From the IMG/VR virus record IMGVR_UViG_3300037501_000255: DNA of 64,000 bases; one strand, 5' to 3'. The position numbers and the translations under genes are program-made. The notes beneath the pieces are model-generated. The model worked only from the letters and a program-made list of their open reading frames with translations. It made no database searches and was not told where the DNA came from. Source of the stretch: a virus (Duplodnaviria > Caudoviricetes). Each line of letters opens with the position of its first letter. Within the stretch, counting starts at the first letter, position 1. Positions 44 to 14,878 of the stretch are shown one piece after another.

Positions 44-3000
44 TCATTTCCTACTCTTGCTCTGCATAAATTGAGGAACCTTGTCCCCACGCTGACCCTT
101 TCCGCCGGGTCTAATTGGAGCGGGATGATATTTATGCTTGACAGTTTCAGTGAATGGAGATTCGTGGGCAGCGCCTGGAGTTGCCGGCGTGCCTGGAGTC
201 TTGCCACGACTCTTCTTTTCTGGAGTTTTTTTGCCCCACAGAATGTGAGGTAGTACATAGCGTAATTTTTTGTATACGCCTTCACCCTCACTCTGCTGGC
301 GAGCAAATTCAGACACCGTAGGCAATTCGTCGCTGAACTCAACGGCCATTAACTTAGGATAACGGTCTGGGTCGAAAGCCTCGGCCGTCACCAGCGGAGT
401 TTCCCGAACCTGAGTAAACCGCCTCGCCAGCTCCTTCTCGCGAACTACAGAAGCCTGCTTGTCAGTCAGCTCTTTCAGATATTCACTGACTTTTGAAGGA
501 TCAAAATATACGCTTGGCTGCTTACCTTGTGCAGCATCTTTAAGTTTTTCAACTATGTTGTCGAATTTTGATAACGATTCATACTGAGATGCCATTATCG
601 CTCCGAGCAATTCATTGTATTCCTTATCTACAATCGCCTTAATCTGCTTTTCATCTAAGCCCTCTGCAGAGGCCTTAGCGCGCGCCTTTGCTCTAGCAGC
701 ATCAAGCTGCTTCTTGGCCTTAGCGGCCCGTTCGTAACGCATTAGAGCCACTTCCGCCTCATACTGAGCGCGGAAGAATAGCATATAAGGATCTTTTGCT
801 CCCAGCATACGTTCCGGGCGTCCGCGTACGCGCCCAACCCCCCTGCCCATATCACGTTCTTCAACAACAGCTTCCAGCGCAGCCACACCCTCTGGTCGGT
901 CTATTATAGATTCCCGATCTATATCACTCATAGCCTGCTGCAGCATCTCAATGGCTTGCACGTACTCTGGGGTCCTGTGCAGTTCATCCAAATACTGCGC
1001 ACGCAAGCGAAACTGCTCGCGCGCGTCGCTAGTAGCCACCTCAGCCCGCTCAGTAGCCTGCTTGAGATATTCATCATCAAGCATACGAAGGTAATTATCC
1101 AGCTCAGTTTGCTTATACAGAGCAGCTCTGACCCGACTCTCGCGCGAGGTGTCAGAGGCGGGATTTAGCTCCAAGGCCTTCTTGTACGCATATCTCATAG
1201 CACGACTAGCGTTTAACATGCGGGTGGACGGCAGCTGCTTTGATGGATTATTTGGATCTACAAATTCACGACGACGATACATGGCCGCAAGCTCAGCCTT
1301 GTCGGCTGCACGGTACTTCTTAGCCTTCTCGGCCACGCCCCTTTCAACTGCCCCTTCATAGCGCTGACGATGCTCGCGAATCTTCAGCTTATCCTCTTCA
1401 GTAGGCTCGAATACACGAACCCGGCCCCTTTGACGAGTTGATTCGGGCGACGAAGGCGCAGGTTGACTCCGAACAGCACCCAATCTGCGTTCAACATTGG
1501 CCACCTCGCGCTCTATACGTTGGATATCAAATTCCAGGTCCGTAATCGACTTTTGAGCGACCGCAATCTGGTCTTGAATACTCCTCTGTTCTGATGGAGG
1601 CGCAGAAGACAATTCCTTTTGTAATTTATTCAGTTGCTTATCGTCACCGTACTTACGAGCATATAATTTATCCCGCTTCTCCAGCAGACTTTCAAGCATC
1701 TTTTCCAATTCCTCTGCAGACTCAACATATTTTTGCGGATTCTTTAGTAAATCACGTATCTTGCCAATTTCAGAATGCAGCTGCCGGGCACGCTCTCTGA
1801 GGCGAGCTGATCTGCGCTGAACAGTCTCCTGTTCAATTCGATTGCGCGCCAGCCGTTGGCGATTAAATTCAGGATCTACAGCAGTGCCGCTTTCAAATGA
1901 AGCACGCTCCTGTCTGAGTCTAGCCAGCTCCGCATCCGGCTCTGCGAGGCGCTCTTTTATATCGCGCATTTCCTTTGAGTTAACATGAAGGCGATCCAGT
2001 AGCCCCTTCCGTACATCTTGAGGTATTGCACTAGGATCAATTAGGCCCAATTCAATATCACGACGGATTGCCCCGGTAAGAGCCGCCCTGCCCAATGGTT
2101 CAGGAGTTTCCCACCGACGAGAAAGTGCTTTGGCCCTCTCATCATATTGCGGAAATCTCCAAGGTTCAGATTCGACTGGCTCGGAGCCCCAACCGAACTC
2201 TTTTGCTATATCGCGTTCCTCTCGCTGCACTTTTTTAGAAATCTCAGGGGCCCAACCGCGCTCCCTTATAGTTTTTGCAGGCGCAATCTCTTCTGTGCTT
2301 ACAGGATGCGTTTGCTGGATCAGCCTATCAATAGTTGAAGACACATCTGATCTGAATTTTTGAAAAGCTGGCTGCTCGGCTAAGTACTTGCGTTTCGCCC
2401 TAAGACGCTCCGCTATAACAGGGTCCTTCTCTGCACTCTTCTCAAGATTAGAGAGCTCTGCTTGCAGTTTGTTAAATTCAGCCTCTAGCATTGCAGCTAC
2501 CTTGGCATTTGCACTAACCACACTCTCTAGATCTCTAATGATCTTATTATTGCCATCACTCTTGCTATATTTACCTAATATAAGTGATGGACCGAGTATA
2601 TCTGCAGGAATTTGAGCATCCGCTTTGCCTCCAGCGCGCTGTACCAACGCAGAAAGCGCCTGCCCCAGACGACCCATATATTCGAGCATCTCGCCACTCT
2701 GTCTGTGCGCAATATCTCTATTTATTGTTCCAATTTGAGATTTCCATTTAGAAATTTCAACATCTGCTGGAATAATTCCATCCAGACGCTCATAGTCAGT
2801 TTCAGGAGCAACATCTTTGGTTCTCACTTGCAGCTTGCGTTCCAAAGTCTTCTTCTGTCCTCGCAACATACCACCAGTAGCAACGTCCGGCATAATCTTC
2901 TCAAACATAGAGCGTACTAGCGGAGAATTGAAAGATTTCATATTCTCCTTGAGAGTATCGCGCACGCGAATCATTTCCGGATCTTGCGAGCGAGGCTTAG

Positions 3001-4882
3001 GGGCAGAGACGGCACCAAGCTCCCCTTCCAAGTCAGAAATTTGCTCGGGGAGAGCGTATTCGACCAGCTTAGTCAAGGCAGCGACTTCGGGGTGCGTATC
3101 GCCCAGCTCTTTAGCCCTACGCCTCAACTCATCTCTGGCATCGGCAAGCTGCTTTTTATATTCATCTATAGTCTTAAACTTCTCCAGTTTATCAGCAATT
3201 GTTTGCAGGCGCATCTCAACACTTGCAACATTTGAATATGGAGCAATGGCTGCAATCAACGTATCTGGATTTACCGCGCTACTATCATATAGAGATGCTA
3301 TTTCCGTACGAAGCCTGTTCGATTCTGCATCGGCAAGCTCAACCCGTCGCTTTGCATCCCGGTATCGTGCGCTAGCATCCTTCTGCTGAGCCAATTTATC
3401 CTTAGTTTGCGGACCCGCCATCAGAGCATTTAGTTCCACACTGGCCGCTTCAAGATCTTGTTTTGCACTGCGCAACTCCGCGTCGCTGGTGGTTTTCTTA
3501 GCAAGTAGAGGCGCTAATTTTTCCTGATCGGCAGTTGCGCGCAACAGTCCACGCGCCTCCTCTAGCTTGCCACTCAGCTCCTTATATTCCGCAACATAGT
3601 CTTCGCGAATAGCAGCAAGCGTGCGCTCACCGCGAGGCTGAGAGCCCCTCTCCTTGCTAGGACCAGTATTGGGCGAGGGCGGCTTAGCTGTAAGAGACGT
3701 AGATGGGTCGGGTATCTGCAGCAATATGCGATGCTCGCCACCAATTCTATCAGCGGCAGCCTTTATTGCCGACAATATATCTGCAACAACAGGGGCTACT
3801 GCAGCGGTGTAAAATTCTGATTCAACACCCTGATTTGTGAGAGGGCGGATGAAGTCATTTTCAGATGTTAGAAAGTCACTAATCTCGAGTAGTGGTGTCT
3901 GAGCGTCTTCAAATAAACGTTCTAGCGCAAGGCGCCCAAGTAGGTGAGGGGCTTTAATTGAGGCTTGTGCACGCGAAGAGGTCTTTTTGTGCAAAGAATC
4001 CATCGCCGACACTGCCTTCCGAAGCCTCGCAAGAATATCAACTTCCCCACGTACAAATGTTGGAGCATTACTCAATATTTGTTGTAATCGATTTAATCCA
4101 GCTAAAGCACTGCCCAATGAAGCTGAAAGTTCTTCCAAAATTGGCGCGTACTTTGCAACATCCTCACCACTAGGAGCTACAGGAGCTGTTGCAGCCTGCG
4201 GGGCAGGCTCTGCAGCCTCGCTAGGCTGCTCCGCAGGACTAGATGCCGGTGCATCCAAAGATGCTAATTCGGCACGCTTTGCCGCAAGCTCAGCATTCAG
4301 ACGATCCTGCTCACCCTTAAAATGAGCTTCGCGCGCAGGGTCAATGGTTACGCCGGGGCGCGTCAGCTGCTTCCACACGGATTGAATTCGATTAAGCTCA
4401 GCCCGCAAATCGGCAATCTCTTTTTGCAGGGCAATCGAGCGCCGCTGCTTATCAGAGAGATCTGCTGCTTCCCGCTTTAATTCTGGGGTGGGGAAGCGCT
4501 GTTCTAGTACATGCTCTTCAACTTCGGAGGGGGCCTCTGTTGGCTGCATACCTCCGCGAATATGAGTGACTTCGTGGCCCAAAGTCTTTACAAGCTCATT
4601 GATAAGAGCCTGCCGATCTTCTTCTACACCCTGAGTTTTTAATTGATTCTTTATAGCATCAAGTGAAATATATACTATGCCATCGCCTGTAGCCTTGCCT
4701 AGATATGGCGACTTAGGATTTCCGTGCTCCACCACGACTTTTTTAACGCCATCAAAGTATTTAGGATCTGCGCCCTTGAGCTTATTAACAGCCTCACGCA
4801 CGGCGCTCTCTTCGGGCTCTATGATTATATCTATAGATGAAAACCTATGTATAATTTCATTAATTATACTGTTAAATTTCAT
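44..4882 (-). CDS. 1612-aa protein: N-terminal zincin-like metallopeptidase motif followed by long coiled-coil; probable virion/internal protein
   Basis: LGHEVTH (HExxH) preceded by YLGKATGDGIVYISL; the rest is heptad-like and E/K/R/A-rich; GGAG RBS upstream (ttggagaatatATG). Confidence 0.6.
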   Translation of the reverse strand: MKFNSIINEIIHRFSSIDIIIEPEESAVREAVNKLKGADPKYFDGVKKVVVEHGNPKSPYLGKATGDGIVYISLDAIKNQLKTQGVEEDRQALINELVKTLGHEVTHIRGGMQPTEAPSEVEEHVLEQRFPTPELKREAADLSDKQRRSIALQKEIADLRAELNRIQSVWKQLTRPGVTIDPAREAHFKGEQDRLNAELAAKRAELASLDAPASSPAEQPSEAAEPAPQAATAPVAPSGEDVAKYAPILEELSASLGSALAGLNRLQQILSNAPTFVRGEVDILARLRKAVSAMDSLHKKTSSRAQASIKAPHLLGRLALERLFEDAQTPLLEISDFLTSENDFIRPLTNQGVESEFYTAAVAPVVADILSAIKAAADRIGGEHRILLQIPDPSTSLTAKPPSPNTGPSKERGSQPRGERTLAAIREDYVAEYKELSGKLEEARGLLRATADQEKLAPLLAKKTTSDAELRSAKQDLEAASVELNALMAGPQTKDKLAQQKDASARYRDAKRRVELADAESNRLRTEIASLYDSSAVNPDTLIAAIAPYSNVASVEMRLQTIADKLEKFKTIDEYKKQLADARDELRRRAKELGDTHPEVAALTKLVEYALPEQISDLEGELGAVSAPKPRSQDPEMIRVRDTLKENMKSFNSPLVRSMFEKIMPDVATGGMLRGQKKTLERKLQVRTKDVAPETDYERLDGIIPADVEISKWKSQIGTINRDIAHRQSGEMLEYMGRLGQALSALVQRAGGKADAQIPADILGPSLILGKYSKSDGNNKIIRDLESVVSANAKVAAMLEAEFNKLQAELSNLEKSAEKDPVIAERLRAKRKYLAEQPAFQKFRSDVSSTIDRLIQQTHPVSTEEIAPAKTIRERGWAPEISKKVQREERDIAKEFGWGSEPVESEPWRFPQYDERAKALSRRWETPEPLGRAALTGAIRRDIELGLIDPSAIPQDVRKGLLDRLHVNSKEMRDIKERLAEPDAELARLRQERASFESGTAVDPEFNRQRLARNRIEQETVQRRSARLRERARQLHSEIGKIRDLLKNPQKYVESAEELEKMLESLLEKRDKLYARKYGDDKQLNKLQKELSSAPPSEQRSIQDQIAVAQKSITDLEFDIQRIEREVANVERRLGAVRSQPAPSSPESTRQRGRVRVFEPTEEDKLKIREHRQRYEGAVERGVAEKAKKYRAADKAELAAMYRRREFVDPNNPSKQLPSTRMLNASRAMRYAYKKALELNPASDTSRESRVRAALYKQTELDNYLRMLDDEYLKQATERAEVATSDAREQFRLRAQYLDELHRTPEYVQAIEMLQQAMSDIDRESIIDRPEGVAALEAVVEERDMGRGVGRVRGRPERMLGAKDPYMLFFRAQYEAEVALMRYERAAKAKKQLDAARAKARAKASAEGLDEKQIKAIVDKEYNELLGAIMASQYESLSKFDNIVEKLKDAAQGKQPSVYFDPSKVSEYLKELTDKQASVVREKELARRFTQVRETPLVTAEAFDPDRYPKLMAVEFSDELPTVSEFARQQSEGEGVYKKLRYVLPHILWGKKTPEKKSRGKTPGTPATPGAAHESPFTETVKHKYHPAPIRPGGKGQRGDKVPQFMQSKSRK

Positions 4883-5124
4883 ATATTCTCCAAAATATCA
4901 TCGAACTCATCAGCCATTGAAAACTCGCCGACAGAATCCAGAGCAGAGGCTATAGTACGTAGCGAACTAACCATGTCTGCCTTCTTTTGCGCCTTAAATA
5001 TGTGCTGTACTAATCCCCAATCACGATCAGTGAACCTGGACTGCTTCTTGCCCTTATGCTTGCGTACAACACGCTTGGCTTTTTGCCACCTGCTCTCATC
5101 TTTCTTAGATAATTTTCCAGGCAT
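4879..5124 (-). CDS. small basic hypothetical protein (weakly ChaB-like N-half; C-terminal shared helical module)
   Basis: 81 aa, RBS aggag, ATGA overlap with the next gene; RWQKAK...DWGLVQHIFK then LRTIASALDSVGEFSMADEFDDIL. Confidence 0.55.
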   Translation of the reverse strand: MPGKLSKKDESRWQKAKRVVRKHKGKKQSRFTDRDWGLVQHIFKAQKKADMVSSLRTIASALDSVGEFSMADEFDDILENI

Positions 5125-5125
5125 A

Positions 5126-6427
5126 CTATGCTCCTACTACAATACGATCTTTTAAAAACGGTGTCGGATCTATAGTTTTCGAGTCATACTTCATAATAAA
5201 ATGCAGATGCGGTCCGGTCACTTGTCCGGTTTGACCAGCAAGGCCGATAACCTGCCCCGGTTGAACTATGTCTCCAACAGATACAAGAATCTTGCTTAAA
5301 TGCAAATACATAGTCACCAGCCTATCATCCGGACCATGTGCGACTTTAACCATGTTCCCGCTCGCCTGATTGCCGGCACCGGCAAATATGACACGGCCTT
5401 TAGCAAAGGCCAAGATTTTAGTACCTTCTGCTGCCTCAAGATCCACTCCCTTGTGAAAGTGACCTGGTTTCTTGGTTATTGGATCCACACGTACCCCATA
5501 CGGAGATGTTATGCGTTGCCGCCCCGCTAGCGTTTCACCGGGCTGAAGAGGTCTCGGTCGATCTACTTCACTGGGACCGGGCTTATGAGAGTGCGGCACG
5601 GTCGGGGCCGAACCGCGAAAAATCTTGGCTAATTCTGAGTTTACATACTCAGCCAAATTAAACTCGGCCTTTTTGTACTTTTTAACAAGTGCTGGGGCGA
5701 GATACTGATTCATCAATGTTTTAGACTCATGTCCAACAGACTCTGATACGTTTTCGAGGGCCTTGTCAAAGTCCTTTGTTCGCTTAAGCTCATCACGCAT
5801 CAATCGATTTGCATGAAATCCACGCAGATCTTTAGCTGTAATATCAAAGTCAGCAAGGTATCTATTGACAACCTTGGCGCGAATGCGCTTGCCATCCTCA
5901 TACTCGAAGACAAAATCCTCGTTCGACTTACCCTTTAGAAGGTCTTTGAGTACCTTTGCAACAGCAGCGTCAGTGAATGAGAATTTTTGATCTACTTGCT
6001 TTTTACCTAGAAAACTAAATTTCACGGTATTGCCGCTTATTTTAACATGCTTCTTCTTAAGCGTAGTTGCACCAAATGTACCGAACTCATCCACGGAGTC
6101 GTCATTGCCAACGCGCATGGCGGTAAGGTCCAAAAGCGCTACTACGGCAGCAAGCGCGCGTACCTTCTCGTCATCAGACTTTAAATCTGAACGATATTTC
6201 TTTTGTAATTTTGGCAGACTCTTTTTTAGAGCATTTATATGCTCAACCTTCTTCTTCCATCTCTTCTTGACATGAGCATCATCGTATACCCGAACTTCGC
6301 CGGATTCGGTCTTAATTTTCTTGACGTAATTCTTCTCGTATTTGCGCTTGGCTAAGACATATAGCGATGAGGCGCCATATGCCTCAAGCGTCATTGCTCT
6401 ATTCTGCACTCTCCGGCTCAGTATCAT
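5126..6427 (-). CDS. DNA topoisomerase IB catalytic core fused to C-terminal M23 metallopeptidase
   Basis: Topo IB pentad: MRVGN (R105), FLGKK (K142), KDLR (R202), VGH (H233), NQYL (Y242). M23 motifs: ITSPYG, HKGVD, YLHL, GPHLHF. One continuous frame. Confidence 0.9.
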   Translation of the reverse strand: MILSRRVQNRAMTLEAYGASSLYVLAKRKYEKNYVKKIKTESGEVRVYDDAHVKKRWKKKVEHINALKKSLPKLQKKYRSDLKSDDEKVRALAAVVALLDLTAMRVGNDDSVDEFGTFGATTLKKKHVKISGNTVKFSFLGKKQVDQKFSFTDAAVAKVLKDLLKGKSNEDFVFEYEDGKRIRAKVVNRYLADFDITAKDLRGFHANRLMRDELKRTKDFDKALENVSESVGHESKTLMNQYLAPALVKKYKKAEFNLAEYVNSELAKIFRGSAPTVPHSHKPGPSEVDRPRPLQPGETLAGRQRITSPYGVRVDPITKKPGHFHKGVDLEAAEGTKILAFAKGRVIFAGAGNQASGNMVKVAHGPDDRLVTMYLHLSKILVSVGDIVQPGQVIGLAGQTGQVTGPHLHFIMKYDSKTIDPTPFLKDRIVVGA

Positions 6428-6722
6428 TACTCACCCTAATCGGCATAGCGCCCGCTATTTTGCCCAGCCTAAATAGTAACGAATCTATATCTTTACATGC
6501 TCTGTTATAGTTCAACCTCTCGGCAAGAGATATCTCGGTCGAGCTATATATACGCATTTTATTGATAGTTGCGCGCCAACGTACAAGAAGGGGGATGTGT
6601 TTGGCCGCCTGCTCAGCACTCCCCCTTCTCCCACCACAAATATCCCAAATATAATCTAGCGCACGACCAATGCCGTAATACGTGCTGAAAGATATATTCG
6701 TGACATCATGCGGCAGCTTCAT
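6399..6722 (-). CDS. hypothetical protein
   Basis: 107-aa ORF filling the gap between portal and topoisomerase, co-oriented. Confidence 0.5.
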   Translation of the reverse strand: MKLPHDVTNISFSTYYGIGRALDYIWDICGGRRGSAEQAAKHIPLLVRWRATINKMRIYSSTEISLAERLNYNRACKDIDSLLFRLGKIAGAMPIRVSNDTEPESAE

Positions 6723-6725
6723 AAA

Positions 6726-8630
6726 TCACGGTGCTGGGCCGGGAGGCGTTGGCGCTCCCGGCATACCACCAGGCGGCTCCGCTGGTGTTGGTGGAGGCGG
6801 CATACCCATGCCTAAATCGCCGCCAGGCATTAGAGGTGGTAGTCCGCCCAATCCAAGGTCACCACCCGGCATCGGAGGTGGGACGCCCGGCAATCCACCC
6901 GGCATACCGCCTGCAAGACCACCAGCCGCACCCCCGGCTGGTTCAGGAATTGGCTCAGTTGGATTAAGACTCTTTAGCTGAGACAGGCTCATCTTAGATA
7001 GATTATCTTGTTCCTTGGCTATAATAGCGGCTTCAATCATCTCCTGCCTAATATTGGCAATTTCATTCTTGCGGCTCAAACCAAGGCTACGATCTAGCGT
7101 TCTAACAGAAACACGATTCTTTTCCACTAGTGTAGAGAGATGTGCGATATAATTATCGAGATCATATAGTGTCATATGATTCCATTCTACTTTGGGTACA
7201 ATCAAGCGCTTCTCTTGACCAACGATATCATAAAATCCTTGTACCTCAGAAATCGGAGCAAAAACCTTCCTCTCTAGCCAATTAGCTATCATAGTCCTAA
7301 ATCCGTTGTAGCGCTGCCTCATGACATCCAGGGCAACGGATGCTGTAGCATACGACGCGCCCTCCTGTGTAAGCAGGGATTTTGGAACCATAAGGCCTGT
7401 AAAGAGGTTATCCATAATCTGATTGATATCTGCGGCAGTATCCAGTATGTGCCCAGAAGCCCCGACTCGGTCAATCGTCACAGCACCGTGTGTGATGATT
7501 TTGAAATCTCTGTCAAATTGCGCCTGCTCCATAATAGCGCGCCAATTATCCAATTCTTCCTGCCGAGGATAGAATCCCTCAGCGCCATCCGTACCGATCT
7601 TAACAAGAGTGATCGGATTAACCATGCTATCTGCCTGAATATACTTACATTCCCTATACTTATCATATAACATTAGGTCTTTCCAGACACTAACTATAAT
7701 AGAGGTGCCACGAACATCATATGGTGAATTTAACATCTTCAAATGACTGATGTTGAAGTTATCCAGCGGAATCATTTCATTTCTAATCACATGATTGATG
7801 ATTTTCGGATCTATTTGATCACGTATGCGCGCATACTCGGGATCCGCATCTGATACAATCTTTTTCAGTTCCGGGTCGGGTCTTAATAAAATAGTAGTGT
7901 TCTTGGGGGAGGTCGGTGACGCTCTGACTGTGATAAAGTCTGGATTGTGCAAATATAACTGATCCCACGAGCCAGTAGACTCATCAAAGGAAGCGTATAC
8001 AAATGCTTCGCCCAACTTCCAGAACTCCAGCGCCGCCTGCTGAACAACGGTCTCGAGGTCAATTTTATCACACATATCCAAAAAGAATCTCTCTACGCGC
8101 TTATCATCGCACCGTATAGATAGCTTGGATATTGGGTATGTAGCATGCAGATTAATTGCATTTCTCACCAGAGGATTTGTCTCGTAATAAGCTCTATTCC
8201 ACGCATTCATTGTGATACGATCGCGGGGAAGCTGCATGTTTTGAGTGAGGAATAGGGGAGAGAATGGCTCTGGACCCACATGCGTGGAGTTTGACACTCC
8301 GCCTATGCGTCCTCCAGAATTCATATTTGTCGATGCAGTCTTATGAAGACCGGAGGCGAGCGCCAAGTTTGGTCTCGGATGCTCTTCTGCGCGAGCATTT
8401 ACCTCCTGTAGATACTCTCGGCGCTCAAGGCTAAGATGCCCAAGGGCGGCGGCTGACTGAGCCTGCCTGTGTAATGTTGTCCGTGAAACATTTTCTACAG
8501 GCAAACCACGCTGCTGCTGGGCTTGACGATAATACATTTGATCTATAACGCTGGTGCGAGGCTCGGCGTCCCCCCAACGTTTAGCCTGCTCTTCAGCTCT
8601 CTTTATAACACTTGGTTCATGCTTTTTCAT
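6726..8630 (-). CDS. phage portal protein
   Basis: Directly downstream of TerL; portal-like segments (YYETNPLVRNAINLH, EFWKLGEAF, YDVRGTSII, LMVPKSLL); Pro/Gly-rich C-tail. Confidence 0.75.
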   Translation of the reverse strand: MKKHEPSVIKRAEEQAKRWGDAEPRTSVIDQMYYRQAQQQRGLPVENVSRTTLHRQAQSAAALGHLSLERREYLQEVNARAEEHPRPNLALASGLHKTASTNMNSGGRIGGVSNSTHVGPEPFSPLFLTQNMQLPRDRITMNAWNRAYYETNPLVRNAINLHATYPISKLSIRCDDKRVERFFLDMCDKIDLETVVQQAALEFWKLGEAFVYASFDESTGSWDQLYLHNPDFITVRASPTSPKNTTILLRPDPELKKIVSDADPEYARIRDQIDPKIINHVIRNEMIPLDNFNISHLKMLNSPYDVRGTSIIVSVWKDLMLYDKYRECKYIQADSMVNPITLVKIGTDGAEGFYPRQEELDNWRAIMEQAQFDRDFKIITHGAVTIDRVGASGHILDTAADINQIMDNLFTGLMVPKSLLTQEGASYATASVALDVMRQRYNGFRTMIANWLERKVFAPISEVQGFYDIVGQEKRLIVPKVEWNHMTLYDLDNYIAHLSTLVEKNRVSVRTLDRSLGLSRKNEIANIRQEMIEAAIIAKEQDNLSKMSLSQLKSLNPTEPIPEPAGGAAGGLAGGMPGGLPGVPPPMPGGDLGLGGLPPLMPGGDLGMGMPPPPTPAEPPGGMPGAPTPPGPAP

Positions 8631-8643
8631 AATTCTTTACACC

Positions 8644-11556
8644 TTATATTCTCGGCAAATATGCCAACATCGGCACTGGCAAACCGGGACCTTTAGCCTT
8701 GACCTCGCTGCCCTTGAAGCCGCTCGTCGCCAAGAACTTGTATGCAATCAGAGCATATATTGTTGCCATGAGCCCGTCGTTTTGGATAGCACCCTTGACA
8801 TATCTGTTATATACATTATCATTCTTCACGATCTTCTTAACTTCCATCGAGGTAAAATGCTGCATCAACCACTCGATCCTATCGTATGACTCGCCATGTA
8901 CAGGGAAGCGGATTTTGCCATTTCTAACCATAGAGAATATCTCTTCTATCATGGCATCCTTATTTAAAACAACTCGTAATTCTTTTGGCTTATATGATAT
9001 AGTGCTATTCAAGGTGCCGCTGTTTATACATCCTAGAAATCGCTCACCAAAGCCCATCGAGCCCTGCATGTGTTGCACTATGTCTTGGCCGTATCCGATA
9101 TCTGCAGCAGCAACCTGAACCTTGAATAGTCGATACATTTCAGATATGATATTGACCTTGTATTCAAAATCATTGCGCTTTAATCTATAAGCATTTTCTA
9201 TTGTAAATATTCCATTTTTGTCCACACTAACAATTACCACGGCTGTATATGACTGCCCGGCATCAACTCTTCCTCCGCCAGAGTCCTCTTCATCCTCATC
9301 GCCAGCACCGACTAGGTCCTTCCCTCCCCAGTCTATGCCCATCACGACGGTTTTGTCTCCGCGATCAATAATAGTTTTTGCTAATCCACGAGTTCCGTCG
9401 CAGCAGTTTGCGCGAATATCATCTAGCGATATCGTCATGCCGCCACCACTATAGAACTCTCCCAATGTTTCATTTTTCCAGGCCTTCTCACTGCGTTCGC
9501 GATTTACAGACGGATCTAGGTCCAAAATGCTCTCTTTAGTAAACCAAGGATGTAGTAAAACACTTACGTGATAGCCCACATACTGCGTCTCGCCAAGCTT
9601 AGTAGGCATCCAGCGCCCACCCTCGATCGCATCAGCCTTTTTCTGCAACGTACCGCATTCGGGGCAGCGAACATCATGCCCGGATACCCAAATCTTCTTC
9701 CAGGAGTCGCTACCCATAGTGTATAGGAAAAAATAATGGGAGCAGCCAGTACACCGTAGCTGATAAAATCTCTGATCAGATTTTTGCCATAGGTTATAGA
9801 AGTGGGATCCTGTTCCTTTCGGCGTTCCAAAATATACCTGTATACCTTTGGTGGGCCTGCCATACTGTGCAGATGTTAAGATGGGACCCGCCGTCTCGAT
9901 AGCATCCTTTGACATATCCTGGCAATTGTGTGCAATCGGGCCACCGACATTTTTGCTGGTCCGGCTTGGGCAAAGTATGAAGTTATGGTTATCAGCTACG
10001 CCAATATCGTAAACGGCGTCTTCGCCAGCATCATACTGTAATTTGTCAACACATGTGAAAGCGTGCGAAGGACTACTGTTTGACCATGCATACCTATCTG
10101 CCGCCCAGCTGCGATAAAAAGATAGCTTATATTCCATATTATGATGCACATATGGCTGTATTATCTCACAAAGTTTTGAATAATTGGATGAATCCAGATA
10201 TAATGAAAAGTATGAGTAGTACTTTCTATATTCCGCGTTAATTCCAAACCTGGACAGCATCGCAACTAATCGAACCTGCGTATCCTCATCAAATGAGCAC
10301 GTTGAGATGCACGCACATCCCTTATTTACGAAGCCATCATCCATAAACCAGACAGCAAGAGCGCGAGCGTCAGCAGCATCCAACATCCACTGCGGACACG
10401 TACTCTTTGTGCGAGGAATGTATCCTGGTAATACAAAGCACTTTGATGAAAAACGTACTGCTGGCTTCTGAACATAACCATTTTTCTCAATATATGCAAC
10501 GCTACTATTAAACATCGACGCTTTCCATTCTGCGTATTCGCGCTGCTGTATGCCATGTGTTACAGAAAGGCGAAAGCGCCCACTCTTGGGACTCGAGATA
10601 TGGCCATCTCCGAGGAATGAACCAATTGCTATCTGCAGCTGGTCAGAATTCAAAGCGCGCACGCAGAGGTCTGTCCCAGGCGAAGTCATCAGGGCATCAC
10701 CGATACACAGGGACGATGCATCTACCCAGCCACGCTGAGTTAAAAATCTATGATTCGGCGTGCATTTGATCTCTCGATTTCCACAAGTAATTTGCATTAA
10801 TTTTCGGATTCCGCGATTCCAGGCACCATTAATTTGCTTGAACTCAAAAGTACAAGTTGACTCATTATAGCTCTTTACAAGCGGAAGCGGCTCACCGTTC
10901 GCCCACATATCATACAGCTTGCCTATTTTCTCTTTGCCAGAATCAGTCTCTATGTTCTGATCGTAGGGGAAACACTCGTCAAAGAAAATAGCGTCCTGCG
11001 AGAGACCGCGGATTCGGTCGCCATCCGCTCCGGTACCCTCTATACGAAGCTTATTGTATCCCTTAAATGTCTTTTCAGCTATAGCATCCTCCGTTCCTGC
11101 GACTTTAATAGCATTTGCGTCATTTTTTAACATTCTGCTATTTATATAGCCATTCTGCGAGCCTGCTACCATAGGGCCCAATTTATCTTTGGCGTACTTC
11201 GACATTAATCCTAGTGTTGGAAATACATGCAGAACCCTCATCGGAGGTTTGTCTGGTCCAGTGCCAAAGAGCCCTGAGGCTGTGAAGTACAATGATAATA
11301 CAGCCGCAAGAACAGTGGCGCCTATTTGGCGCCCCTTCAAAATCACCATCGGTTTAGCGGTCTTATTAGCCGCCTGAGCTGCCACTTCGCGATACAGGTC
11401 GGCCATAAACTTCCAACCAGTGCCACTCATGCGGAATGGTTTTCCGTCTACAGTCAGATGATTTTCTGCAAATGAAACAGGATCAAGAAGAGATATCTCA
11501 TTCTTGATCTGATTGAAAAGTTTTAGCGTTACTTCTTTGTTGGCTACTACCGTCAT
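8644..11556 (-). CDS. terL: terminase large subunit (GpA-like), intein-containing
   Basis: KGRQIGAT (ATPase), IFFDE Walker B interrupted by the intein, GTPK, CxxC...CPECG zinc motif, nuclease GIDWG and ADIGYG. Confidence 0.9.
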   Translation of the reverse strand: MTVVANKEVTLKLFNQIKNEISLLDPVSFAENHLTVDGKPFRMSGTGWKFMADLYREVAAQAANKTAKPMVILKGRQIGATVLAAVLSLYFTASGLFGTGPDKPPMRVLHVFPTLGLMSKYAKDKLGPMVAGSQNGYINSRMLKNDANAIKVAGTEDAIAEKTFKGYNKLRIEGTGADGDRIRGLSQDAIFFDECFPYDQNIETDSGKEKIGKLYDMWANGEPLPLVKSYNESTCTFEFKQINGAWNRGIRKLMQITCGNREIKCTPNHRFLTQRGWVDASSLCIGDALMTSPGTDLCVRALNSDQLQIAIGSFLGDGHISSPKSGRFRLSVTHGIQQREYAEWKASMFNSSVAYIEKNGYVQKPAVRFSSKCFVLPGYIPRTKSTCPQWMLDAADARALAVWFMDDGFVNKGCACISTCSFDEDTQVRLVAMLSRFGINAEYRKYYSYFSLYLDSSNYSKLCEIIQPYVHHNMEYKLSFYRSWAADRYAWSNSSPSHAFTCVDKLQYDAGEDAVYDIGVADNHNFILCPSRTSKNVGGPIAHNCQDMSKDAIETAGPILTSAQYGRPTKGIQVYFGTPKGTGSHFYNLWQKSDQRFYQLRCTGCSHYFFLYTMGSDSWKKIWVSGHDVRCPECGTLQKKADAIEGGRWMPTKLGETQYVGYHVSVLLHPWFTKESILDLDPSVNRERSEKAWKNETLGEFYSGGGMTISLDDIRANCCDGTRGLAKTIIDRGDKTVVMGIDWGGKDLVGAGDEDEEDSGGGRVDAGQSYTAVVIVSVDKNGIFTIENAYRLKRNDFEYKVNIISEMYRLFKVQVAAADIGYGQDIVQHMQGSMGFGERFLGCINSGTLNSTISYKPKELRVVLNKDAMIEEIFSMVRNGKIRFPVHGESYDRIEWLMQHFTSMEVKKIVKNDNVYNRYVKGAIQNDGLMATIYALIAYKFLATSGFKGSEVKAKGPGLPVPMLAYLPRI
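9925..10974 (-). mobile_element. 350-aa intein with LAGLIDADG homing endonuclease in TerL
   Basis: Starts CFPYDQNIET right after Walker B DE; block B CTPNHRF; endonuclease motifs GSFLGDG and WFMDDG; ends IAHN followed by +1 Cys, restoring FFDE-CQD. Confidence 0.93.
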
Positions 11557-13650: not shown

Positions 13651-14129
13651 TTACCCTCCCCGTTTCCGCAGGCGACTTCTCGGATATATTTTATAAAATC
13701 AACTACCGCAGGCTCCGGCTTGCCGTCTAGAAGCTTAGTCCAATATTCAACATTGGATTTAGATCCGCAGTACGAATCTATGGGCGCAACATAGTTGGCG
13801 CTTTTCCTCTTCTTTTTCTTGCGTTCGACACCCCTCTTCTTGCGAATAAAATCTACGATCGTCCGTATCTTGCCGCTTCGATAATCATCCAAAACCTTAG
13901 GCCATAGCTCTCCGTAGTCATAATTTTTTCTTAATGGCTGAGGAACTTTAGATACGGCAGTATACATTAGAGTTTGTGACGCCATATTGGCGACAATCTC
14001 ATGCTCGGGGCGAGTGCTTAATTCAAGCACCTCATTACCTAGAGCGCACACCTCTGGTAGGTCCAGTGTCTGACCCATGCTGCGCAGAAGTGTCGCGAAT
14101 TTGATTAAAGATGGAACTAAGGTGTTCAT
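13647..14129 (-). CDS. hypothetical protein
   Basis: 160 aa, ATGA overlaps on both sides, basic patch RKKRGVERKKKKRKSA. Confidence 0.6.
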   Translation of the reverse strand: MNTLVPSLIKFATLLRSMGQTLDLPEVCALGNEVLELSTRPEHEIVANMASQTLMYTAVSKVPQPLRKNYDYGELWPKVLDDYRSGKIRTIVDFIRKKRGVERKKKKRKSANYVAPIDSYCGSKSNVEYWTKLLDGKPEPAVVDFIKYIREVACGNGEGK

Positions 14130-14878
14130 ATGATATCGACAAGGCGCCGCTCACGAATGAGCTGCTCAGTCATCTCCTTTGTTAGTTTGATTCTTTGCAA
14201 AACACCAAATTCAATTAGATCATTCAAGATATTTGGATCATATTTTATTGCAGCTGAAAGCTTATCAGAGGCGTACTTTGGCTTAATCTTCTCTATTAGT
14301 TGCAAATTTGAGCGTATTGCCTGCTTAAGCTCTTCATCAATAGCCATACCGTACTTAGCTGCATAGTAAAATGCTCTAATAATGCGATTTGGCGAGGCTG
14401 TCATTGCAATTACAGGATCTACAGGGCAACGTATAATGCGATGCTCAATATCATACTTACCCATAGACGTAATATCTAATATTTTTGAAAAATCTAGCGG
14501 CACCAATAAGGTATTAATGGTAAAGTCGCGAGAGTACGTTTCTCTCACCATATTGGTAGCTACAGTCAGCCCCCTAGCAATGAGTAGCTGATCTATGTTA
14601 TCATAAATTTGATTTGTAGAGAAATCTATCGAGAATCGCCCGTGTCGTATTTTCTTATGGCCATCAGCTAACACAGTAGGCGTCGTACCAAGCCGCGCAC
14701 CTACTAAATCAGCTAGATTTGAAATGCTGCTTTCACCATTTGTAAGGTCTATATCGTTCAGTCCATCGAGCAGCCCCATAAATATATCACGCGGAATGCC
14801 GCCAACGAGATATGGCACACGGATGCCATTACTCTCAGCAGTCTCAGTGATTATGTTCAAAATCTCTTTTAGATCCAT
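14126..14878 (-). CDS. class II nucleotidyltransferase (CCA-adding/poly(A) polymerase family) head domain
   Basis: YLVGGIPRD...NDIDLT (motif A with DxD), SRDFTINTL, PNRIIRA. Confidence 0.85.
   Translation of the reverse strand: MDLKEILNIITETAESNGIRVPYLVGGIPRDIFMGLLDGLNDIDLTNGESSISNLADLVGARLGTTPTVLADGHKKIRHGRFSIDFSTNQIYDNIDQLLIARGLTVATNMVRETYSRDFTINTLLVPLDFSKILDITSMGKYDIEHRIIRCPVDPVIAMTASPNRIIRAFYYAAKYGMAIDEELKQAIRSNLQLIEKIKPKYASDKLSAAIKYDPNILNDLIEFGVLQRIKLTKEMTEQLIRERRLVDII

What the first reader, a model, noticed from the sequence alone, without database searches (positions are those of the whole stretch)
5126..6427. Topoisomerase IB fused to an M23 peptidoglycan endopeptidase next to the portal gene
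A complete Topo IB catalytic pentad (R105, K142, R202, H233, Y242) and complete M23 zinc motifs (HKGVD, HLH) lie in one frame, joined by a Pro-rich linker that starts at YKKAEF. A DNA-relaxing enzyme and a cell-wall hydrolase act in different compartments, so the fusion makes most sense as a head-packaged polyprotein cut at the K-x-A site and ejected at infection (wall breach plus relief of DNA torsion). That model is inference; I do not know a described example of this fusion.
Basis: partly seen in the sequence, partly recalled or inferred. Interest (0 to 1): 0.85.

Follow-up and report, generated by a model that had tools for sequence, protein, structure and literature searches.

The report
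Phage head-module topoisomerase IB–M23 peptidase fusion
An uncultured giant phage encodes, right after its portal gene, one conserved protein joining a DNA-relaxing enzyme (topoisomerase IB) to a cell-wall-cutting peptidase; it is most likely cargo loaded into the virus head and released with the DNA, a phage counterpart of the topoisomerase that poxviruses carry in their particles.

Summary
Confirmed. Window 5126-6427 (minus strand) is one 433-aa ORF with three parts:
- A type IB topoisomerase catalytic domain (res 25-253). The pentad R105/K142/R202/H233/Y242 is invariant in 24/24 relatives; Z 23.8 to D. radiodurans TopIB.
- A variable Pro-rich linker (254-300).
- An active-type M23 peptidase (301-433). 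All five His/Asp are kept; Z 19.6 to LytM.

It is not an assembly artefact. 27 further protein clusters from several different metagenome samples (49-74% identity) keep the fusion. In the relatives whose contigs I read, it sits in the same slot: TerL - portal - small ORF - fusion - small ORF - giant ORF - head protease. The only 'split' relative is a single in-frame TAG.

In sister phages the same TopoIB carries VanY, DNA ligase, Prim-Pol, a CCA-adding enzyme, 2H or ART-PolyVal instead. These are often giant proteins punctuated by an [I/L]SKRA motif. This is the signature of 'polyvalent' capsid-cargo proteins, and TopoIB is not mentioned in the paper that defined them.

Best reading (about 0.55): a head-loaded, co-ejected protein. 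M23 opens the wall and TopoIB acts on the entering DNA, as in poxvirus cores. Packaging and ejection are inferred. Cleavage at 'K-x-A' is unsupported. None of 50,697 public phage records carries the fusion. This scan has noted head-module TopoIB cargo before in other genomes.

The parts
5126..6427 (-). Whole gene: 433-aa TopoIB-linker-M23 protein (P0001), stop codon at 5126-5128
   Evidence: The M1 start is supported by the conserved N-terminal M-I/L-L-S-R-K/R in 9 relatives. A public gene call starts at M12 (P0002).
6356..6427 (-). Variable N-terminal leader, res 1-24; modelled with very low confidence (pLDDT about 30)
   Evidence: Residues 1-32 have pLDDT under 50. Mean identity is 23%, and many relatives lack it.
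6341..6355 (-). Basic motif L-A-K-R-K (res 25-29) that opens the TopoIB module. It aligns with the [I/L]SKRA punctuation motif of the sister clade.
   Evidence: K27 and K29 invariant, A26 and R28 kept in at least 90%; alignment A4; motif statistics.
5669..6355 (-). Type IB topoisomerase module, res 25-253: a beta-hairpin (34-48) plus a complete catalytic domain. Pentad codons: R105 6113-6115, K142 6002-6004, R202 5822-5824, H233 5729-5731, Y242 5702-5704.
   Evidence: Pfam E 6.7e-31; pentad invariant 24/24; Z 23.8 to 3m4a and Z 22.0 to 2h7f; codons verified.
5528..5668 (-). Linker, res 254-300: a short semi-conserved helix (258-270) followed by a Pro-rich segment modelled with low confidence
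   Evidence: pLDDT under 50 for 254-258 and 270-290; 26% identity, length 35-81 aa, 15% Pro. The helix is also conserved in front of VanY in P0031.
5129..5527 (-). M23 (LytM-type) peptidoglycan metallo-endopeptidase domain, res 301-433. HxxxD: H325 5453-5455, D329 5441-5443. H376 5300-5302. HxH: H407 5207-5209, H409 5201-5203.
   Evidence: Pfam E 1.2e-29; residues conserved; Z 19.6, rmsd 1.5 A to LytM 2b13.
6399..6722 (-). Small ORF (107 aa) between portal and fusion. Its end overlaps the fusion's start by 29 nt. A small ORF of 81-158 aa holds this place in the relatives examined.
   Evidence: no family match.
6726..8630 (-). Portal protein (634 aa) with a Gly/Pro-rich C-terminal tail
   Evidence: phrog_16240 E 5.6e-45; 47-86% identical to the portals of L001, L003, L007 and L012.
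8644..11556 (-). Large terminase interrupted by an intein with a LAGLIDADG homing endonuclease
   Evidence: phrog_675 E 2.7e-54; PF14890 Intein_splicing, PF03161 LAGLIDADG_2, PF05876 GpA_ATPase.
4879..5124 (-). Small ORF (81 aa) directly downstream. It is homologous to the N-terminus of the giant ORF in relative L007.
   Evidence: same position in L001 and L003.
44..4882 (-). Giant 1612-aa ORF of unknown function, following the fusion. A giant ORF of 749-2924+ aa holds this place in relatives.
   Evidence: no Pfam or PHROG family.

Best explanation
The gene encodes a bifunctional virion-cargo protein of an uncultured huge phage (about 370 kb). It fills a fixed 'cargo slot' just after the portal gene in the head-assembly block.

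Proposed mechanism:
1. The protein is made late and loaded into the prohead.
2. It leaves the capsid through the portal and tail with the DNA at infection.
3. The C-terminal M23 domain cuts peptide cross-links of the host peptidoglycan locally, so that the delivery conduit can cross the wall.
4. The N-terminal topoisomerase IB needs neither ATP nor Mg2+. It acts on the phage genome as it enters, removing torsional stress from ejection and first transcription, or nicking and resealing DNA, as the virion topoisomerase of poxviruses does.
5. The flexible 35-81 aa linker lets the two domains work apart. They may or may not be separated by proteolysis.

Shown here: the two domains, their catalytic residues and folds; conservation of the fusion; the conserved gene slot; the exchange of partner domains.

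Inferred: packaging, ejection, the sites of action, and any cleavage.
For: (1) Both domains are complete and under purifying selection. The pentad and the M23 ligands are invariant or nearly so. TopoIB is 74% and M23 52% identical on average, against 26% for the linker. Folds are confirmed.

(2) The fusion is kept in 27 other protein clusters from several different metagenome samples, down to 49% identity. It forms one well-supported clade on a TopoIB tree (99/98).

(3) The slot TerL - portal - small ORF - fusion - small ORF - giant ORF is found in the relatives whose contigs I read. In the own genome a 1285-aa protein with a head-maturation-protease domain follows (phrog_18299, E 1e-10). The slot right after the portal is where MuF-type and polyvalent head cargo is encoded (PMC5512222).

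(4) Partner exchange. P0026 (M23) and P0031 (VanY) share 69% identity over residues 1-357, plus the helix in front of the hydrolase, and then carry different wall peptidases. So wall hydrolysis is what is selected at this end.

(5) In the orthologous slot of sister phages (portal 47% identical), the same TopoIB is joined to ATP-dependent DNA ligase, or to PolyA_pol+HD+LigD Prim-Pol. A giant ORF with 2H and LigD_N follows.

(6) Among 96 further TopoIB relatives the partners are 2H, LigD Prim-Pol, LigD_N, HAD_SAK, NUDIX, VanY and ART-PolyVal. This is the repertoire of injected polyvalent proteins.

(7) Precedents. Capsid-held ejection protein gp28 of cyanophage A4 carries a lytic transglycosylase and an M23 domain (PMC12002296; its chain 9k2v_E matches the M23 part at E 1.3e-6). 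Vaccinia H6R topoisomerase I is listed as a known virion enzyme (PMC1540416).

(8) There is no signal peptide and no membrane segment, so the M23 domain cannot reach the wall through Sec from inside.
Against: - There is no direct evidence that the protein is in the virion. No cultured relative exists, and the nearest cultured phages with a TopoIB have no virion proteomics.
- No recognised capsid-targeting sequence or MuF/portal domain is present in the protein.
- No other peptidoglycan hydrolase was found in the 142 kb held (M23, SLT, Phage_lysozyme, Amidase_2, M15_4). So an endolysin role is not excluded, but the record is only about 38% of the genome.
- The N-terminal DNA-binding domain of poxvirus and bacterial TopIB is reduced to a hairpin, so activity on its own is unproven.
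- Folded domains would have to pass through the tail channel.
Confidence: 0.55

Rival explanations
1. Late cytoplasmic enzyme that is not packaged. The TopoIB part works at the packaging motor or on replicating and concatemeric DNA, relieving twist during packaging of a 370-kb genome. The M23 part serves as the phage's endolysin once a holin opens the membrane.
For: The gene lies next to terminase and portal. A canonical endolysin needs no signal peptide. No other muralytic domain and no type II topoisomerase was found in the 142 kb held.
Against: Only about 38% of the genome could be searched. No lysis-cassette context is present: the neighbours are portal, the giant ORF and the protease. The partners of the same TopoIB in the same slot of sister phages (ligase, Prim-Pol, 2H, ART-PolyVal) have no place in lysis. 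I know of no endolysin fused to a DNA enzyme (own knowledge).
Confidence: 0.2
2. Virion-associated, but a tail or baseplate component (a tail-associated lysin) rather than head cargo. TopoIB would then be carried along, or act at the tail tip on exiting DNA.
For: M23 domains are common in tail lysins and tape-measure proteins. Many of the PHROG matches to residues 300-430 are to these (phrog_10030, 4070, 167).
Against: The gene is flanked by head genes, not tail genes, in every locus examined. Those PHROG matches cover the M23 domain only.
Confidence: 0.08
3. The TopoIB module is mainly a carrier. By clamping on, or covalently joining to, the packaged genome near its leading end, it drags whatever is fused to it (here M23) through the tail. 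Catalysis serves attachment and release rather than relaxation.
For: TopoIB is the constant part while the partner varies in the same slot. Type IB enzymes form a covalent 3'-phosphotyrosyl link (established knowledge). The pentad is strictly kept.
Against: TopoIB is internal, not terminal, in several giant relatives (P0122, P0123, P0130, P0142). No terminal sequence of the genome is available to look for a cleavage site. Nothing distinguishes this from ordinary relaxation.
Confidence: 0.08
4. Artefact: a chimeric assembly or a missed stop or frameshift joins two separate genes.
For: None, beyond the single relative (L006) called as two genes.
Against: 27 other clusters from ENA, JGI, Logan and NCBI assemblies have the same fusion. 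An independent Logan contig is identical across the junction. The L006 split is one in-frame TAG.
Confidence: 0.01

Closest known systems
Polyvalent proteins of phages and conjugative elements (Iyer, Burroughs, Anand, de Souza, Aravind 2017, PMC5512222)
   Same: One polypeptide combines unrelated activities (DNA-acting plus wall-degrading). It is encoded among virion genes of a portal-terminase phage. Sister proteins carry class markers (ART-PolyVal, 2H, NUDIX). The paper already argues that a lysozyme fused to a DNA-acting ParB domain is injected while breaching the wall.
   Different: The words topoisomerase, tyrosine recombinase, integrase, M23 and LytM do not occur in that paper's main text. 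The protein here is a minimal two-domain form without the zincin-like MPTase proposed to process such proteins. It lies in a huge-phage lineage with a fixed slot after the portal.
Poxvirus virion topoisomerase IB (vaccinia H6R / variola, PDB 2h7f, 3igc)
   Same: Same catalytic fold and pentad (Z 22.0). A small ATP-independent enzyme carried in the particle of a large dsDNA virus (PMC1540416).
   Different: About 21% identity. The N-terminal domain is reduced to a hairpin (model 30-55 against variola 53-80). It is fused to a wall peptidase. Presence in the virion is not shown here.
Bacterial TopIB (Deinococcus radiodurans, PDB 2f4q / 3m4a)
   Same: Best structural match: Z 23.8, rmsd 2.4 A over 197 residues, 26% identity.
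   Different: The fourth pentad position here is His, as in the poxvirus enzymes; the bacterial enzyme has Asn there (own knowledge, not checked here). The roughly 87-residue N-terminal domain is missing. The context is a phage head module.
Capsid-held ejection proteins with muralytic domains: T7 gp16 (own knowledge) and cyanophage A4 gp28 (PMC12002296; PDB 9k2v)
   Same: A peptidoglycan hydrolase stored in the head near the portal and released at infection. A4 gp28 has an M23 domain that matches this one (E 1.3e-6).
   Different: Those are large helical scaffold-like proteins that build the ejectosome. They carry no DNA enzyme, and similarity is limited to the M23 domain.
MuF-fused and portal-fused effectors of phages (cited in PMC5512222)
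   Same: Same gene position (directly after the portal) and the same logic of a constant part with exchangeable enzymatic ends.
   Different: No MuF or portal domain was detected in this protein or in 96 relatives. Here the constant part is itself an enzyme.

Membership tests
Type IB topoisomerase (PF01028 catalytic core) | Catalytic pentad Arg-Lys-Arg-His/Asn-Tyr in order and spacing | tested here: met
   R105, K142, R202, H233 and Y242 are present and invariant in 24/24 relatives.
Type IB topoisomerase (PF01028 catalytic core) | Profile match above the curated cut-off, and the catalytic-domain fold | tested here: met
   107.8 bits against a cut-off of 23.7. Z 23.8 to 3m4a and Z 22.0 to 2h7f and human Top1.
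Type IB topoisomerase (PF01028 catalytic core) | Mg/ATP-independent relaxation through a 3'-phosphotyrosyl intermediate | not testable with these tools
   Needs a plasmid relaxation assay with a Y242F control.
Full-length poxvirus/bacterial TopIB architecture | N-terminal beta-sheet DNA-binding domain of about 80 residues | tested here: not met
   Only a hairpin (res 34-48) preceded by a basic stretch. Residues 1-32 are modelled with pLDDT under 50. The model aligns from residue 56 (3m4a) or 30 (2h7f).
Active M23/LytM metallopeptidase (PF01551) | HxxxD and HxH zinc and catalytic motifs plus the third His | tested here: met
   H325, D329, H376, H407 and H409 are present. The last three are invariant and the first two are kept in at least 90%. 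This differs from the degenerate EnvC/NlpD-type domains (own knowledge).
Active M23/LytM metallopeptidase (PF01551) | Fold | tested here: met
   Z 19.6, rmsd 1.5 A over 121 residues to LytM 2b13. ShyA and lysostaphin score alike.
Active M23/LytM metallopeptidase (PF01551) | Peptidoglycan cleavage and its bond specificity | not testable with these tools
   Needs a zymogram or muropeptide analysis.
Polyvalent proteins (Iyer et al. 2017) | Two or more domains of disparate biochemistry in one polypeptide | tested here: met
   A DNA topoisomerase plus a wall peptidase.
Polyvalent proteins (Iyer et al. 2017) | Encoded by a portal-terminase phage among virion genes | tested here: met
   Between portal and head protease; this gene order was seen in the relatives examined.
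Polyvalent proteins (Iyer et al. 2017) | Shares domains and syntax with recognised members | tested here: inconclusive
   Relatives of the TopoIB module carry ART-PolyVal, 2H, NUDIX and HAD_SAK. The window protein itself has none of the published domains.
Polyvalent proteins (Iyer et al. 2017) | Packaged in the capsid and injected | not testable with these tools
   Needs virion proteomics or imaging.
Polyvalent proteins (Iyer et al. 2017) | Associated zincin-like processing peptidase | tested here: inconclusive
   None in the protein. An HExxH in the neighbouring giant ORF is kept only in the closest relative. Pfam is silent and Atlas scores are under 0.9.
Phage endolysin | Lysis-cassette context (holin/spanin neighbours) | tested here: not met
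   The neighbours are TerL, portal, two small ORFs without a family match, and the giant ORF. The head protease lies downstream. I did not test the small ORFs for membrane segments, and small holins can escape profile detection.
Capsid-internal ejection proteins with muralytic domain | Physical location in the head core, and release at infection | not testable with these tools
   Only the gene position and M23 similarity to A4 gp28 (E 1.3e-6) are available.

The most novel reading that the evidence does not exclude
In a whole lineage of huge freshwater, groundwater and sediment phages, topoisomerase IB is the constant carrier of capsid cargo. It rides on (clamped or covalently joined to) the packaged genome and takes exchangeable enzymes with it into the cell: wall peptidases here; DNA ligase, Prim-Pol, 3'-phosphoesterase, CCA-adding and 2H enzymes in sister phages. 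In the sister clade these cargos are made as giant polyproteins cut at an [I/L]SKRA punctuation motif. A remnant of that motif (LAKRK) opens the TopoIB module of this protein.
Probability: 0.12. Interest if true: 0.85.

Novelty: new variant of a known kind. Interest (0 to 1): 0.6.

Why it matters
- If the protein is in the virion, tailed phages, like poxviruses, bring their own ATP-independent topoisomerase into the cell. That bears on an open question: how a very long, tightly wound genome is delivered and first transcribed before any phage protein is made.
- It would add a DNA-topology enzyme to the known repertoire of injected 'polyvalent' proteins.
- The M23-to-VanY exchange gives a clean natural experiment on how cargo domains are swapped.
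- The related giant proteins with DNA- and RNA-repair domains and a sharp [I/L]SKRA punctuation offer a testable model for polyprotein processing in phage heads.
- Both domains are small and easy to express and assay.

Tried and rejected
- Misassembly or a hidden stop at the junction: rejected.
- 'Relatives have two genes': only L006, and it is one in-frame TAG followed in frame by the conserved linker. TAG recoding there is possible but unproven. In L006, 2 of 2 TAG stops are followed in frame by the next ORF, which chance gives 1 time in 9.
- K-x-A cleavage site: no support. I looked for recurrent short motifs in the giant ORFs of the window's clade and found none.
- A shared acidic-helix tag of the type seen in the linker: zero matches in 31,774 aa of the phage's minus-strand ORFs.
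- Portal-TopoIB or MuF-TopoIB fusions among my hits: none by Pfam in 96 relatives, and none with an HMM of this lineage's portal in 262 proteins.
- HExxH of the giant ORF as a processing protease: kept only in the 70%-identical relative, no family match, Atlas scores under 0.9.
- A second muralytic enzyme or a type II topoisomerase in the own record: none found, but only 142 kb (38%) is held. PF00182 had no working control.
- Virion proteomics for cultured phages with a related TopoIB (PhiXhv jumbo phages): not done in the paper.
- Burroughs and Aravind 2016 (Swiss-Army-Knife RNA repair proteins) could not be read. So I cannot say whether TopoIB is mentioned there.
- More of the L012 contig could not be fetched.
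Full report
OBSERVATION

The window holds one ORF on the minus strand, 5126..6427, of 433 codons. Pfam finds two strong and separate domains:
- Topoisom_I (PF01028), residues 57-234, E 6.7e-31.
- Peptidase_M23 (PF01551), residues 324-421, E 1.2e-29.

In an alignment of 24 family members:
- The Topo IB pentad R105, K142, R202, H233, Y242 is invariant.
- The M23 residues H376, H407, H409 are invariant.
- H325 and D329 are kept in all but two members whose M23 halves are permuted.

An AlphaFold2 model built on that alignment has mean pLDDT 80. The two domains are above 85. Residues 1-32, 254-258 and 270-290 are below 50.

Foldseek ranks variola and bacterial TopIB first and M23 peptidases next. 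A second aligner gives:
- Z 23.8, rmsd 2.4 A over 197 residues, to D. radiodurans TopIB.
- Z 22.0 to variola TopIB.
- Z 19.6, rmsd 1.5 A over 121 residues, to LytM.

One anatomical difference stands out. The roughly 80-residue N-terminal DNA-binding domain of the poxvirus and bacterial enzymes is reduced to a basic stretch and one beta-hairpin (residues 25-48).

The junction at YKKAEF is the real end of the TopoIB module. The following 47 residues are 15% proline, 26% identical across the family and 35-81 residues long. TopoIB is 74% and M23 52% identical on average. There is no signal peptide or membrane segment.

IS IT REAL?

- The large protein collection holds 27 other clusters with both Pfam domains, at 49-74% identity, from ENA, JGI, Logan and NCBI assemblies. 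Contigs reach 259 kb and 368 kb.
- A Logan contig built independently from the source sample is identical over 4800-6800.
- The only relative called as two genes (L006) has a single TAG between them. The second frame continues directly, in frame, and encodes the conserved linker helix before the called start.

WHERE IT SITS

The record is a 142-kb IMG/VR fragment, about 38% of a genome near 370 kb. It comes from a freshwater metagenome. The phage has a family B DNA polymerase, SbcCD and GroEL.

Gene order on the minus strand is:
- Large terminase with an intein.
- Portal.
- 107-aa ORF.
- The fusion.
- 81-aa ORF.
- 1612-aa ORF.
- Three small ORFs.
- A 1285-aa protein with a head-maturation-protease domain.

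The same order from terminase to giant ORF holds in relatives down to 49% identity (L001, L003, L007). The portals of these loci are 47-86% identical to the window's, so the slot is orthologous.

WHAT THE RELATIVES SAY

An exhaustive profile-free search found 370 proteins at E <= 1e-30. Many of the best hits to the TopoIB part are giant proteins of 1,000-3,400 residues.

A maximum-likelihood tree of the TopoIB module has two well-supported halves.

The M23 clade (support 99/98):
- It includes the TAG-interrupted L006 protein.
- It also includes P0031, in which VanY replaces M23.
- P0031 and the M23-bearing P0026 are 69% identical over residues 1-357. They share the short helix in front of the hydrolase and then diverge completely.
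- That is a recent exchange of one wall peptidase for another on the same carrier. It argues that wall hydrolysis is the selected function of this end.

The giant-protein clade (34 proteins, support 100/94; none with M23):
- In the orthologous slot of L012 the TopoIB is joined to an ATP-dependent DNA ligase.
- In L013 it is joined to PolyA_pol + HD + LigD Prim-Pol.
- In both, the next giant ORF has 2H and LigD 3'-phosphoesterase domains.

Tallies over 36 and 68 further relatives give these partners: 2H, LigD Prim-Pol, LigD_N, VanY, HAD_SAK_1, NUDIX, DUF5661, PTP-SAK and ART-PolyVal.

This is the repertoire and syntax of the 'polyvalent proteins' that Iyer et al. proposed are packed in the capsid and injected with the DNA (PMC5512222). 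That paper mentions lysozyme, SpoIID and DD-peptidase domains. Neither topoisomerase IB nor M23 appears in its main text.

A SIDE DISCOVERY THAT BEARS ON 'POLYPROTEIN'

- In the giant-protein clade the pentapeptide [I/L]-S-K-R-A occurs 83 times in 44,228 residues. Shuffles give a mean of 0.96 and a maximum of 4.
- Spacing is 130 aa or more apart from one 6-residue tandem pair.
- In the six proteins for which I have domain coordinates, all 14 sites fall outside the Pfam stretches.
- It occurs directly before TopoIB, 5-15 residues after it, and seven times in the next giant ORF of L012.
- It looks like polyprotein punctuation: a protease site, a recombination joint, or both.
- In the window's clade only the copy that opens the TopoIB module survives, as L-A-K-R-K (residues 25-29). 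After TopoIB only 'KKA-S/E-hydrophobic' remains. This resembles the K-K-A seen upstream of about a fifth of the sister-clade sites. No recurrent motif is found in this clade's giant ORFs.
Cleavage of the window protein at 'K-x-A' is not supported by anything I could compute.
- A cut after LAKR, removing the poorly conserved, low-confidence leader, is a testable possibility.

MECHANISM

The best-supported reading is head cargo. The protein is loaded into the prohead and leaves with the DNA. M23 opens the peptidoglycan locally. TopoIB needs no ATP or Mg2+ (established knowledge) and acts on the entering genome.

Precedents:
- Cyanophage A4 gp28 is a capsid-held pre-ejectosome protein sitting on the portal. 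It has lytic transglycosylase and M23 domains (PMC12002296; its chain matches this M23 at E 1.3e-6).
- T7 gp16 (own knowledge).
- The vaccinia H6R topoisomerase is listed among known virion enzymes (PMC1540416).

I put this at about 0.55.

The main rival (0.2) is a non-packaged late protein whose TopoIB assists packaging and whose M23 is the endolysin. I could not exclude it, because no other muralytic domain or topoisomerase was found in the 142 kb held. But that is only 38% of the genome, the context is not a lysis cassette, and the partners in sister phages make no sense for lysis.

A tail location (0.08), a carrier or DNA-anchor role of TopoIB (0.08) and an artefact (0.01) follow.

KNOWN OR NEW

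- No record among 50,697 public phage genomes has the two domains together. Only 12 have any match to this TopoIB.
- The nearest are an uncultured 485-kb phage, whose protein is HAD_SAK_1 + TopoIB, and Xanthomonas jumbo phages. The latter have a 668-aa 'topoisomerase' about 2.7 kb upstream of the head-tail connector gene. No virion proteomics has been done for them.
- A jumbo-phage survey notes a phage-specific topoisomerase I in a few jumbo phages, but only under DNA replication and repair (PMC7824862).
- Literature searches found no description of a TopoIB-M23 fusion or of a virion TopoIB in phages.
- I class it as a new variant of a known kind (polyvalent or ejection-type head cargo) with a domain that is new to that kind.

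EARLIER NOTES OF THIS SCAN

Unchecked AI notes report head-module and portal-fused TopoIB in other genomes. I tested the portal-fusion claim on my own hits and did not find it in this lineage. The head-operon polyprotein with 2H, a CCA-adding enzyme and TopoIB that one note describes resembles what I saw in the sister clade (P0131 in L013 joins a CCA-adding-type enzyme to TopoIB and the next ORF carries 2H; P0123 joins TopoIB and 2H in one protein).

Noticed in passing
Proteins P0123-P0157; loci L012 8001-20116 and L013 1584-10998: The pentapeptide [I/L]-S-K-R-A occurs 83 times in 37 TopoIB-bearing giant proteins (shuffle mean 0.96). Spacing is 130 aa or more apart from one tandem pair, and all 14 sites with known domain coordinates fall outside Pfam stretches. 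It looks like polyprotein punctuation (a protease site and/or a recombination joint). It is absent from the window's clade except as LAKRK at res 25-29.
   Followed up: partly
L006 2600-2800: The one 'split' relative has a single in-frame TAG between TopoIB and M23. A second TAG stop in the same 5-kb contig (1090-1092) is also followed in frame by the next ORF. TAG read-through or recoding is possible but not shown.
   Followed up: partly
window 8644-11556 (-): The large terminase gene is interrupted by an intein carrying a LAGLIDADG homing endonuclease (PF14890, PF03161). The relative L001 has an intein too, while L003 and L007 have an uninterrupted TerL of about 610 aa.
   Followed up: no
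window 44-4882 (-), about res 95-110: The 1612-aa giant ORF has an HExxH motif (HEVTH) near its N-terminus, kept only in the 70%-identical relative. There is no family match. Atlas leads to small zincin peptidases (M78, M85) score under 0.9.
   Followed up: partly
own genome, L009 14115-17972 (-): A 1285-aa protein has a head-maturation-protease domain at res 127-229 (phrog_18299) and matches phrog_2774. Its L001 homologue also matches phrog_4523 ('major head and protease protein'). It may be a protease-scaffold-capsid fusion.
   Followed up: no
proteins P0025, P0027, P0028, P0029: In these relatives the M23 domain appears as two half-matches in swapped order: the YxHL...HLH half comes before the HxxxD half. 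This suggests a circular permutation or a partial tandem duplication.
   Followed up: no
window 14126-14878 (-): A 250-aa PolyA_pol/CCA-adding-type nucleotidyltransferase lies five genes upstream of TerL. It holds the same position in L001, L003 and L012. In sister phage L013 the same domain is fused to TopoIB.
   Followed up: no
L014 (LR745208.1, 485-kb uncultured phage) 8443-9969: The closest TopoIB in a public phage record is a 508-aa protein with an N-terminal HAD_SAK_1 domain (the 'Swiss Army Knife' RNA repair family) fused to TopoIB.
   Followed up: partly
window 4879-5124 (-) and L007 12240-12500: The 81-aa ORF after the fusion is homologous to the N-terminus of the giant ORF of L007. 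So the small ORF and the giant ORF are probably one functional unit that is split in some phages and fused in others.
   Followed up: no
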